From NCBI GenBank assembly GCA_965287045.1, contig OZ336884.1, positions 41,292,001 to 41,356,000 of the forward strand: a stretch of 64,000 bases of DNA. The letters are read 5' to 3'. The stretch comes from Carcharhinus amblyrhynchos. Its lineage: Eukaryota. Shown here piece by piece: positions 51,001 through 54,000 of this stretch (the first letter of the stretch is position 1; every line of letters starts with the position of its first letter). The position numbers were made by a program.

Positions 51001-54000
51001 TTGGCATGTCAGAAAGAAATGCTGCAGGGAGGGCAGACATATATTCCAGGGAAAGTTGTATCTGTAACTGAAGAGATTTAATCGCTTCTTGGCTTTTTGG
51101 CTAAAATCAAGTGCAAAATCGACATGTTGCGCTTAGTTGAAGTCATTAGGTTACATTCAGCTTCATTTGAAACAATTTTTAAAAGCGGCATCTCGGCCTT
51201 TTGGCTAAGATGCAAATGAGATCAAGCCTTGGAGGAGATGCTCTGCCTACTCCAATCAGCTTGGATCATGTAGATCAAGCTCAAGACAGGAGGTGAGAGC
51301 CCTGTCTTGTCAGCTTGGATCAGGAATGTCTCAACTTGTTGAGACTCTGAATTGGACTTGATTTGATTGAATTGGAATAAAAACAAAAAAAATGAAAATG
51401 ACTCAGAGTTACCAAGAGTTGACGGTTTTCTTGGGAGCTGTCAACAATAACAATTTGACTTACAACAGAAACACTTTGTTACAAAGTAGTTCAGTACCCG
51501 GGTATTACTGTAAATATGGTAATAATTTTACACATTAGCCATCTCACAATTGTGGCAAAACCAGCACACACAATCACTACTGTTACCATCAGATAAAAGA
51601 TACTTCTTCTTACATCAGCACCAATTGAAATGGGAGTAAAGCTGAACTCACTTCAATGCGGTACTAATAGTCATTGTCAGGTTTTATACCGGCTCTATCA
51701 TATATACTAGCTACCACACAACAGGAAACTAAATTGATTTCATTATTTATCACTGCACATAGGACCAGATCTTTTCAGGGCACATTTAATATTAATACCA
51801 AGTCAGATAAATAAAGAAACTAACAGGGAATTGGATGAAGTAATGGATTAAAAACATTCCCACTTTACCTCTGGGGTAAGCCAATAGTCTAAGTGATTCA
51901 TGGCAGGACAATCAGAGACACCTTGGGCAGAGGGCTTGTCTGTTGGCAAGGAAAACACTAGCAAAGATCTTGAATTTGGCTGCCTACAAAGGACTTCAAT
52001 TTACTTTTGCCATTTCTAACTTTCCTATTATCAAGGTATTGTAAGAGTTATAATGCCTGCGGATGGTAATTATGTTGGATCGATAAACATTTGGTTGCTT
52101 GAAAGCTGCTTTTGTGACTTTGTGCAAATCACTGTACCACTCTGCCTGGCATATTAAGGAGCAATTCAGCAACAAAAAGCATGCTTTTATACCATTGTGA
52201 TTGTGACAAGGTAAGTGATGTGATCTGCTTCCAGGTGTATGGCAATGTCATGTTGTCATGAGCAGTCTGGGGTTGGCCCTTCTCCAATTTTTCCTCTCTC
52301 TTCAGGGGGCTGCCAGCCTTCAATTGCATAGCTCCCTTAATGCTGCAGATTGGAAAGTCTCTATGTGGAGAATTGCACGTACATTTTATCATAGAATATT
52401 GGGAGAAAGATTTGTACCATCGTGGTGCAGTGTGGTCTTCTGTAGCTAAGGCACTTTGTTGAGGTATCAGAGAAATAAGCTTTCTCCTGGCTGCATTGAT
52501 GTTGCTGACCAGGTAACATTGGATAACTACAAGAGGTGGCAAAAATTAAGATAAAATATTCCACCCCTTAGCACTTAACTTTTAATCTTGATGAGAACTA
52601 AATTTGTCATATAAAATTAACACAGTATAAAATGACAAGCAAACATGTTCTGCCATCCAAACACACTTAAATTCATTTTCCTGTTCCCAAAAGGTGGAAC
52701 TAAAACAAACATATTTTTGCCAGGGAAGCGATTAAGGAAGACTACTAAAAGAAAAGTAATGCATCAGCATAAAGCTAAACTTCCAAGAAATGATGCAATG
52801 ACCCAATGCACTCTTTCCCCCAATATTCTGTGATAAAATGTATGAGCACAGCTGCAATTCTCCATATAGTGGCCATTTCCATTTATTTTATTTCATTTTG
52901 TTTCATCTTATTCATCTATTTGTGATGGTAATTTGTACCTCTCACTGCCTCCACATATCTCTGGCAAGGAAATCATGCAAGCTTAAACACTGCCATTCTA
53001 TCCTCTACCCTGCAGAATAAGACTATCCACAGCAGAGGAACTGGCGAGGTTGGGAGAGCACCTGTCCAACTTCTGAGTCCCTTGAGATGGTGCTTGGAAT
53101 CACAGGGCTGGCAGCAGAGACTGCAGCTTATCGTGCCACCAAGACCATCCAGGAAGACACTACGTGACAGCCTGTGCAGTCTCTCAACTCCCTCTGAACC
53201 TGTATCCTCAGATGTAGCACAAATTTAAAGCTGCAGATGGTATGATCATGGACCTCTTGCTATCTACCCACTACCATCCTCACCCCAACACTCTGGTTAT
53301 GATTTGGCGTCACCTGGAAATTTTCAAAGAGGAGAAAGAAAAGCAACCCCACACTGGGGATAAGGGCGCACCATCACTCAATCTGACTCTTGGAAGACTT
53401 CAACTCAGATATTGGCATTGCATGCACTGACAGGCTTGTGCAGAGTCAGGACCTGCTTGTGCTGTGTAACTGTGCATGTGGGCTGCAGGCAAGCCAGAGG
53501 AAGACAGTGCATCATGTGTCAACTTTCCAAAGGGCAAGGATGAAGATAATGGCTGGAATTTTACCAGCAGAATGGAATTCTGTATTCTCGGGCAGGATTT
53601 TATGAGCCTCATCCAAGCGAGGTATGAAAATACTACTAGAAGGGGCTCAGATGAGGACTATGGTTGGTCAGCCTAGAGGAAAAGGCTGAGGAGTATGGCT
53701 TTTGAGATGTTTGATGCATTAACAAGCCTGCCTGGCAGGCTCCTATCAGTCACAAGACTCCATCGTGGCAATGGGAATTGCACAGTGCTTGAAGTCCATC
53801 CATTCCACTGTGGAGTTGGTGGCCAACTCCATGTCTGCACCTGCAGATCTGACCTTGGAGCATTTGGTGGCTGCTACCTCAGTTTCCAATGCAGCACAAG
53901 CAGAAAGCTCGCGACAGCTGACTGCTGCAGGGGAAGCTGAGGCTGAGATTGAAAGATTCAGGTTTCATTCCATGCTGGTTCAGATTGCTGCCTCAAAGGG

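What the first reader, a model, noticed from the sequence alone, without database searches (positions are those of the whole stretch)
51081..51392. U2 snRNA-headed SINE-like family in a shark (three copies in 17 kb)
Seen: a ~310-bp element at 51081-51392 (+), 34510-34803 (-) and 37372-37637 (-). The full copy starts exactly at U2 snRNA nt 1 and follows U2 to nt 40 (34/40 matches); the 34.5-kb copy preserves the branch-point-recognition segment GTGTAGTATC. It then switches abruptly to a shared non-U2 body and ends AATAAAAACAAAAAAA. It has no tRNA A/B boxes and no ORF, and the truncations are at the 5' end. Known: snRNA-headed SINEs (SINEU, U1/U2 heads) were described in crocodilians; I do not know of one reported in cartilaginous fish. 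Inference: a high-copy, independently evolved snRNA-derived retroposon, probably transcribed from a master locus driven by a Pol II snRNA promoter (PSE/DSE).
Basis: partly seen in the sequence, partly recalled or inferred. Interest (0 to 1): 0.9.

Follow-up and report, generated by a model that had tools for sequence, protein, structure and literature searches.

The report
U2-headed retroposon family in a shark
A short, non-coding mobile element in a houndshark gene intron begins with the first 40 bases of the U2 splicing RNA, a design so far described only in crocodilians.

Summary
The window has three copies and no more: 51081-51392(+) full length, 34510-34803(-) and 37372-37637(-) cut short at the 5' end. 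They are 87-92% alike and have unrelated flanks or different insertion points. Rfam's U2 model aligns positions 1-40 to the start of the full copy. This is the only U2-like site in the window (36.4 bits, below the 46-bit gathering score; E=0.0011).

The window is shark, not crocodilian. An EPHA6 exon is 100% identical to Mustelus asterias.

Best reading: a SINEU-like retroposon moved by a LINE and not transcribed by Pol III. It has two layers of U2 head, like crocodilian SINEU-1 (PMC4494074).

New lead: the outer head ends at U2 nt 40. That is 2 nt from the nt 38/39 site where the U2-targeting LINEs Keno and Utopia insert (PMC4640811).

Genome-wide copy number, Repbase/Dfam status, the partner LINE and transcription could not be tested. 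Novelty: new member of a known kind.

The parts
51081..51392 (+). Full-length copy of the element (312 bp)
   Evidence: Sequence; blastn; nhmmer. RNA fold -97.1 kcal/mol, z=-3.43, 0 of 100 shuffles as stable.
51081..51120 (+). Outer head = U2 snRNA nt 1-40 (stem-loop I and the branch-point-recognition stretch)
   Evidence: cmscan aligns U2 model 1-40, 33 of 40 bases equal to the consensus. Coordinates.
51121..51187 (+). 67-nt spacer of unknown origin; holds a T5 run at 51176-51180
   Evidence: Left unaligned by the U2 model, apart from a weak Sm-site-like stretch with posterior 0.3-0.5. T runs listed.
51188..51213 (+). Inner U2 fragment (about U2 nt 4-27), forming an extended stem-loop-I hairpin
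   Evidence: U2 model 7-26 matches 51191-51210, 20 of 20, 19.5 bits. Self-similar to the outer head at 83% over 24 nt. Hairpin seen in the fold.
51214..51375 (+). Body of unknown origin. Direct repeat of 12 nt at 51257-51268 and 51311-51322. Hairpins at 51285-51306 and 51328-51345. Repeated 9-mer at 51348-51356 and 51368-51376.
   Evidence: Coordinates. No U2 match in 51212-51330 at E<=10. The alignment-column bin 236-275, which covers the 51328-51345 hairpin, is identical in 39 of 40 three-way columns, against 26-35 in the other bins.
51376..51392 (+). Tail with an AATAAA hexamer and an A-rich end
   Evidence: Identical in the 51-kb and 34.5-kb copies; variant ATTAAA in the third.
34510..34803 (-). 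5'-truncated copy (from element nt 17). Keeps U2 nt 17-40 at 34782-34803 and the inner U2 fragment at 34691-34710.
   Evidence: Lies inside a CR1 copy; paralogous CR1 copies are uninterrupted at this site.
37372..37637 (-). 5'-truncated copy (from element nt ~38). Inner U2 fragment at 37542-37565.
33998..35720 (-). Host CR1-like LINE copy (reverse-transcriptase region) interrupted by the 34.5-kb copy
   Evidence: tblastn with the window's own 516-aa CR1 frame. Alignment to uninterrupted CR1 copies; about 15 nt of host are missing at the site.
37638..38113 (-). CR1 fragment joined to the 5' end of the 37-kb copy, same orientation; its downstream continuation is absent

Best explanation
This is a family of short, non-coding retroposons of the SINEU kind (SINE-like elements with an snRNA-derived head) in a houndshark genome (Mustelus asterias or a close relative).

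Anatomy, shown: U2 snRNA nt 1-40; a 67-nt spacer; a second, older U2 5' fragment (about nt 4-27); a body of about 160 nt with hairpins; then AATAAA and an A-rich end.

How it moves, inferred: its RNA is copied into new sites by the reverse transcriptase of a LINE through target-primed reverse transcription. This accounts for the intact 3' ends, the 5' truncations and the paralogous empty sites. A Tx1-type LINE is the likeliest partner. It is the L1-like group reported in cartilaginous fishes, and the element's tail is A-rich and unlike the CR1 tail.

Origin of the heads, inferred: they were added in two rounds, when the reverse transcriptase reached the 5' end of the element's RNA and jumped onto U2 snRNA. 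Composites that could still retrotranspose then spread.

Transcription, inferred: not by Pol III, because three runs of T>=4 lie in the first 125 nt and there is no A/B box. Most likely it is by Pol II from a flanking promoter, with the AATAAA hexamer forming the 3' end.
For: - Three dispersed copies, 87-92% identical, and no fourth.
- The flanks are unrelated, except that two copies lie in CR1 copies only 75% alike, at junctions 57-73 nt apart in CR1 coordinates. Each CR1 copy, and two further ones, is an empty site for the other.
- The U2 model aligns nt 1-40 at the exact 5' end of the full copy.
- The same U2/body junction is present in 2 of 2 copies that reach it. The inner U2 fragment is present in 3 of 3.
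- Differences inside the heads are mostly CG to TG/CA changes private to single copies, so the ancestral heads were closer to U2.
- T>=4 runs at element nt 14, 96 and 119; box matches only with 1-2 mismatches. 0 tRNAs. No 7SL, 5S or tRNA match in Rfam.
- The tail differs from the CR1 3' end in the window.
- Kojima 2015 (PMC4494074, sections read) describes the same architecture in crocodilian SINEU-1: repeated 5' addition of U2 or U1 pieces, a non-U2 3' half of unknown origin, poly(A) tails, internal oligo-T, rare TSDs and Tx1 partners.
- PMC8455134 (passage) says chondrichthyans lack full L1 but have Tx1.
- Host identity.
Against: - Only three copies in one window. Genome-wide copy number is unknown.
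- The U2 match is below Rfam's gathering score (36.4 against 46 bits) and rests on 40 nt plus a 20-nt inner piece.
- No target-site duplication in 0 of 3 copies (shuffle P 0.16-0.86). One copy has about 15 nt of host missing instead.
- No LINE sharing the 3' end is in the window, so the partner is a guess.
- Only one copy shows the 5' end, so the 'start at U2 nt 1' rests on n=1.
- The outer head ends 2 nt from the Keno/Utopia site in U2. A random template jump does not predict this; the rival below does.
- No transcript data.
Confidence: 0.55

Rival explanations
1. The family is the same, but the outer head is a target-site footprint. The master copy, or its parent LINE, sits in a U2 snRNA gene at the site used by the U2-specific LINEs Keno (Tx1 clade) and Utopia. 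It is transcribed from the U2 gene's own Pol II promoter, so each full-length RNA starts at U2 nt 1 and carries U2 up to the insertion point.
For: - PMC4640811, section 6: the U2 sequence downstream of Utopia starts at nt 39, and nt 1-38 are expected upstream. Keno has the same 3' flank.
- The element's head ends at nt 40, within 2 nt. I set this test before looking the site up.
- 5' junctions of such LINEs vary by family.
- Crocodilian Tx1-Mar, the proposed SINEU partner, clusters with Keno, and one Tx1 family carries a U2 head.
Against: - The inner U2 fragment ends near nt 27-31, not nt 38-40.
- None of the 3 copies is followed by U2 sequence; there is no other U2-like match in the window.
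- By established knowledge (recalled, not tested here), snRNA promoters are coupled to 3'-box processing rather than polyadenylation, which fits poorly with the AATAAA tail.
- The chance of a junction within 2 nt of one given site is only about 3-5%, but this is a single coincidence.
Confidence: 0.25
2. It is a non-autonomous, internally deleted LINE. Its 5' part (with a U2 head already carried by the parent LINE) and its 3' part are the two ends of one Tx1-type LINE, with no separate head acquisition.
For: Kojima 2015 reports Tx1 families with U1 or U2 heads and discusses non-autonomous LINEs as an alternative class. The stretch around the 51328-51345 hairpin is the most conserved among copies (39 of 40 columns), as expected of a LINE tail recognised by its reverse transcriptase.
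Against: No LINE in the window shares either end. Two U2 fragments in series are easier to explain by stepwise additions.
Confidence: 0.12
3. The U2 head is a one-off. An ordinary repeat happened to be joined once to a U2 fragment (a chimeric retropseudogene), or the three copies are local segmental duplicates.
For: Only one copy reaches U2 nt 1. All three lie within 17 kb. There are no TSDs.
Against: The 34.5-kb copy has U2 nt 17-40 with the same junction, and all 3 copies have the inner fragment. The flanks are unrelated or only 75% alike, against 87-92% for the element, with different insertion points and different truncation points.
Confidence: 0.05
4. The resemblance to U2 is chance.
For: The score is below Rfam's gathering threshold.
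Against: E=0.0011 over the whole window and all families. The match begins at model position 1 exactly at the element's 5' end. A second, 20 of 20 match to U2 7-26 lies inside the element. The other copy restores the consensus base at 4 of the 7 mismatched positions.
Confidence: 0.02

Closest known systems
SINEU-1 of crocodilians (Kojima 2015, PMC4494074), especially subfamilies with two U2-derived segments such as SINEU-1F
   Same: Short non-coding retroposon. The 5' head comes from the 5' part of U2 snRNA, and further U2 pieces are stacked by repeated 5' addition. The 3' half is of unknown origin. Poly(A)-type tail, oligo-T inside, no Pol III promoter, TSDs rarely seen, many 5'-truncated copies (sections read).
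   Different: The host is a shark, not a crocodilian. Sequence relatedness of the bodies could not be tested: no Repbase, figures and supplements not held. Two of the three copies lie in a CR1 reverse-transcriptase region rather than in Mariner-N4_AMi. Copy number is unknown.
SINEU-3 of crocodilians (U2 with an internal deletion)
   Same: Begins with about 32-40 nt of the U2 5' end.
   Different: In SINEU-3 the middle 83 bp are also U2. Here the body 51212-51330 gives no U2 match at E<=10.
Keno (Tx1 clade) and Utopia, LINEs specific for U2 snRNA genes (PMC4640811)
   Same: Their insertion point in U2 (nt 38/39) lies 2 nt from where this element's U2 head ends.
   Different: They are protein-coding LINEs lying in U2 genes with U2 nt 39 onward downstream. 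This element is 312 bp, non-coding, outside U2 genes, and has no U2 downstream.
snRNA-L1/Alu chimeric retropseudogenes of mammals (Buzdin 2002 and Garcia-Perez 2007, as cited in PMC4494074)
   Same: An snRNA piece at the 5' end joined to another retro-copied RNA by template switch.
   Different: Those are independent one-off events. Here the same junction recurs in separate insertions, so the composite itself was the unit that moved.
tRNA-, 7SL- and 5S-derived SINEs
   Same: Size, interspersion, dependence on a LINE.
   Different: No Pol III internal promoter, and Pol III terminator-like T runs inside.

Membership tests
SINEU (snRNA-headed SINEs, Kojima 2015) | 5' region derived from U1 or U2 snRNA | tested here: met
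   U2 model positions 1-40 aligned at 51081-51120, E=0.0011 window-wide. Second fragment, U2 7-26, 20 of 20.
SINEU (snRNA-headed SINEs, Kojima 2015) | Short (<500 bp) and non-coding | tested here: met
   312 bp. Longest internal stop-to-stop frame is 50 aa.
SINEU (snRNA-headed SINEs, Kojima 2015) | The composite is the retrotransposition unit: the same head/body junction recurs in independent insertions, rather than arising in separate chimeric events | tested here: met
   Outer junction shared by 2 of 2 informative copies; inner fragment in 3 of 3. Different flanks and insertion points. Only three copies were available.
SINEU (snRNA-headed SINEs, Kojima 2015) | 3' poly(A) tail | tested here: inconclusive
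   A-rich end with 8 A after AATAAAAAC in 2 of 3 copies, shorter in the third. The identical interrupted tail suggests it is partly templated.
SINEU (snRNA-headed SINEs, Kojima 2015) | High copy number, dispersed genome-wide | not testable with these tools
3 copies per 64 kb is the only figure.
SINEU (snRNA-headed SINEs, Kojima 2015) | Sequence homology to the curated SINEU-1, -2 or -3 consensus | not testable with these tools
   Repbase and Dfam are not available. Figure 1B and the supplements of PMC4494074 are not held.
SINEU (snRNA-headed SINEs, Kojima 2015) | Mobilised by Tx1-type LINEs, seen as a shared target preference | tested here: inconclusive
   No Tx1 in the window. 2 of 3 copies lie in the same orientation, 57-73 nt apart, in the same CR1 region. 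Simulated chance about 0.006, with the tolerance chosen after seeing the data.
U2 snRNA gene or plain U2 retropseudogene | Full-length match to the U2 model at or above the gathering score | tested here: not met
   36.4 bits against 46. Only positions 1-40 align well.
tRNA-, 5S- or 7SL-derived SINE | Head from a Pol III gene with an internal promoter (A/B boxes) | tested here: not met
   ARAGORN finds 0. No such Rfam match. Box matches only with 1-2 mismatches, and T>=4 runs inside (box consensus recalled).
Keno/Utopia insertion in a U2 gene | Element followed by U2 nt 39 onward, and encoding a reverse transcriptase | tested here: not met
   No U2 downstream of any copy and no ORF. Only the break point in U2 agrees.

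The most novel reading that the evidence does not exclude
The U2 head is not a random capture. It marks a master copy living in a U2 snRNA gene at the ancient Keno/Utopia insertion site and borrowing that gene's Pol II promoter. The shark element would then be a non-autonomous parasite of a U2-targeting Tx1 LINE that escaped to other sites, perhaps with a preference for one region of CR1. The same logic would explain how crocodilian SINEU is transcribed, which its describer left open.
Probability: 0.25. Interest if true: 0.7.

Novelty: new member of a known kind. Interest (0 to 1): 0.5.

Why it matters
In the literature I could search, snRNA-headed SINEs are known from one vertebrate order, and Kojima 2015 states that none was found outside crocodilians. 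How they are transcribed is described there as an open question.

A second, seemingly younger family in a shark would show that the design arises repeatedly. It has the same stacked-head architecture, and its copies are 87-92% alike.

It also gives a concrete test. If full-length masters sit in U2 genes at nt 38-40, the heads are promoter-borrowing footprints. If not, they are template-switch captures.

For annotation, copies of this family can be mistaken for U2 pseudogenes.

Tried and rejected
- Body as the 3' half of U2 (as in SINEU-3). By eye it recalled U2 stem-loops III/IV, but cmscan on 51212-51330 lists 7 weak matches at E<=10 and none is U2. Rejected, with the caveat that the Rfam consensus is pan-eukaryotic. 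I had no vertebrate U2 sequence from a tool and did not type one from memory.
- Spacer as U2 nt 41-110. Only a weak Sm-site-like stretch aligns (posterior 0.3-0.5). Not accepted.
- Target-site duplications: none in 3 of 3 copies.
- snRNA PSE upstream of the full copy. A recalled consensus with up to 3 mismatches gives 7 hits against 5.2 expected. The nearest is at 51583, downstream of the element. This is a weak test, since shark PSEs are unknown to me.
- Partner LINE in the window. Nothing shares the 3' end, and the CR1 tail differs.
- More copies or fragments: none.
- Literature. One search was badly designed (any 2 of 6 terms); its 25 listed papers hold no 'SINEU'. One search ('SINE U' plus RepeatMasker) found 0 papers.
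- Not used: genome contigs, because it holds only bacteria and archaea.
- Closed: metagenome contigs and viral contigs.
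Full report
**What is there**

The window has no N. blastn of 51081-51392 against the window finds three copies:
- the query itself;
- 34803-34510 on the minus strand, 90.6% over 297 columns, starting at element nt 17;
- 37636-37372 on the minus strand, 87.9% over 272 columns, starting at nt 38.

A profile of the three copies finds no fourth; the next hit has E=0.13. 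Gap-free pairwise identities are 269/293, 237/265 and 231/265. Both shorter copies lack the 5' end and keep the 3' end. No frame longer than 50 aa lies wholly inside the element.

**The U2 head**

No Rfam family reaches its gathering score anywhere in the window. With the E-value threshold, the only match below E=1 in the whole window, on both strands and over 4227 families, is U2 (RF00004) at 51081-51278: 36.4 bits against a gathering score of 46, E=0.0011.
- Model positions 1-40 align without gaps to 51081-51120, with 33 of 40 bases equal to the consensus. The rest of that alignment is stretched and of low value.
- The 34.5-kb copy keeps U2 nt 17-40 with only a 2-nt deletion, including the branch-point-recognition stretch.
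- At each of these 24 positions at least one of the two copies has the consensus base. So 4 of the 7 deviations in the full copy arose after insertion, and a further 2 of the 7 are CG to TG changes.
- Both copies leave U2 at the same point, after nt 40.

A second U2 5' fragment lies 107 nt into the element. In the full copy, 51191-51210 equals U2 model positions 7-26 at 20 of 20 bases (19.5 bits; E=0.043 in a 221-base search). The 34.5-kb copy has 19 of 20. The 37-kb copy has 18 of 20, by my count on the alignment. The differences are at the one CpG. By eye, the similarity runs from about U2 nt 4 to nt 27.

The element is therefore: U2 1-40, a 67-nt spacer, U2 about 4-27, a body of about 160 nt, and a tail.

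The spacer and body are not recognisably U2. The full copy folds well as RNA (-97.1 kcal/mol, z=-3.43, 0 of 100 shuffles as stable). The inner U2 stem-loop I and two 3' hairpins are formed in that fold.

**Is it a mobile family or a local duplication?**

The flanks of the 51-kb copy match nothing else in the window next to the element.

The other two copies both lie in CR1-like LINE copies. Those CR1 copies are only about 75% alike, while the elements are 87% alike. The 5' junctions are 73 nt apart in CR1 coordinates, and the elements are truncated at different points. Two further CR1 copies (near 10.5 kb and 39.2 kb), and each host for the other's site, run through uninterrupted. These are paralogous empty sites. 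Segmental duplication is therefore rejected.

No copy has a recognisable target-site duplication (0 of 3). About 15 nt of the host are missing at the 34.5-kb insertion.

**Which organism**

A single exon at 13313-13978(-) encodes an ephrin-receptor ligand-binding domain (Pfam). It is 100% identical to EPHA6 of Mustelus asterias, 95-98% to other sharks and rays, and 91% to a gharial. I searched this one exon only and joined no exons.

The window is thus shark, not human and not crocodilian. This matters because crocodilians are where such elements are known. The three copies lie upstream of this exon, on the gene's 5' side. I take this to be intron sequence of EPHA6, though no upstream exon was mapped.

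**Transcription**

Pol III is unlikely.
- T runs of 4 or more lie at element nt 14, 96 and 119.
- A/B-box consensus motifs (recalled) match only with 1-2 mismatches.
- ARAGORN finds nothing.

An AATAAA hexamer lies 16 nt from the end in 2 of 3 copies, and ATTAAA in the third. This suggests Pol II-type 3' end formation (inference).

A recalled PSE consensus has no match upstream of the full copy. An ordinary retrocopy would not be expected to carry one.

**Comparison with what is known**

Kojima 2015 (PMC4494074; I read the abstract, sections 9 and 18, and passages) described SINEU in crocodilians.
- The heads come from U1 or U2.
- SINEU-1 subfamilies are built by repeated 5' addition of U1 or U2 pieces.
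- The 3' half is of unknown origin, the tails are poly(A), and oligo-T lies inside.
- TSDs are rarely seen, and Tx1-Mar LINEs are the likely movers.
- The paper states that no SINEU was found outside crocodilians and that the mode of transcription is open.

The shark element matches this architecture feature by feature, including the stacked heads.

A passage of the whale shark genome paper (PMC8455134) says that chondrichthyans lack full L1 but have Tx1, and that CR1 is 21.8% of that genome. The CR1 3' end in this window is unlike the element's tail. By exclusion, a Tx1-type partner is the best guess.

**A new lead**

Before looking it up, I asked whether the U2-specific LINE Keno inserts near U2 nt 40. 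Kojima and Jurka 2015 (PMC4640811; abstract, sections 5, 6 and 8, and passages) state three relevant things:
- U2 sequence downstream of Utopia starts at nt 39, with nt 1-38 expected upstream;
- Keno, which is in the Tx1 clade, has the same 3' flank;
- 5' junctions vary by family.

The shark head ends at nt 40. This fits a master copy lying in a U2 gene and read from its promoter.

Against it:
- the inner fragment ends near nt 27-31;
- no copy here has U2 downstream;
- a poly(A) signal fits snRNA promoters poorly (recalled knowledge).

I therefore keep template switch as the first choice (0.55) and the U2-resident master as the main rival (0.25).

**A second lead**

Two of the three copies lie in the same orientation in the same stretch of the CR1 reverse-transcriptase coding region. 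In a simulation on the window's own self-alignments, at least one of three random pairs met this criterion with probability about 0.006. The 100-nt tolerance was chosen after seeing the data.

This could be a target preference, as with SINEU and Tx1-Mar in Mariner-N4_AMi. It could also reflect template switching between element RNA and CR1 RNA. The 37-kb copy has CR1 only on its 5' side, and is followed after 76 nt by the 5' part of the next CR1 copy.

**Novelty and limits**

Six searches of the paper library found no report of an snRNA-headed SINE in cartilaginous fishes.
- 23 papers hold the word SINEU and 21 were listed. By title, none concerns these fishes.
- Of the 21 listed, I read Kojima 2015 as described above and passages in two others.

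Left unchecked:
- Repbase, Dfam and Repbase Reports could not be consulted.
- The supplements and Figure 1B of Kojima 2015, which hold the SINEU sequences, were not available.
- No shark genome could be searched.

So copy number, curated status, homology to crocodilian SINEU, the partner LINE and expression all remain untested. I rate it a new member of a known kind, of moderate interest.

Noticed in passing
window 13313-13978 (-): Exon for the ligand-binding and cysteine-rich domains of ephrin receptor EPHA6, with AG/GT splice sites at its ends. It is 100% identical to Mustelus asterias EPHA6. The element copies lie upstream of it, on the gene's 5' side.
   Followed up: yes
window 32010-39670 (-): Four CR1-like LINE pieces in a row in the same orientation: 38717-39670, 37638-38113, about 33998-37295, and 32010-33670. 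Two copies of the U2-headed element are embedded among them. The 37-kb copy has CR1 only on its 5' side, so it may be a template-switch chimera rather than a plain insertion.
   Followed up: partly
window 34804 and 37638 (-): Two of the three element copies lie 57-73 nt apart in CR1 coordinates, in the same orientation, within the reverse-transcriptase C-terminal coding region. Simulated chance is about 0.006, a post hoc estimate.
   Followed up: partly
window 32120-33670 (-), with its 3' end near 32010: A 516-aa open CR1 reverse-transcriptase frame (Pfam RVT_1, E=6e-35), followed by a 3' end with an 8-nt repeat tail. This is a fairly intact CR1 3' half.
   Followed up: partly
window 9183-9833, 25944-26463, 45041-45407, 54386-54844: Long stop-to-stop frames on both strands share similar peptide strings. 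This suggests another abundant short repeat family. ARAGORN finds no tRNA-like head in the window.
   Followed up: no
window 51328-51345 and the matching parts of the other two copies: The alignment bin that holds the 3' hairpin is identical in 39 of 40 three-way columns, against 26-35 of 32-40 in the other bins. This hints at constraint on a tail recognised by the reverse transcriptase, or simply at the lack of CpG there.
   Followed up: partly
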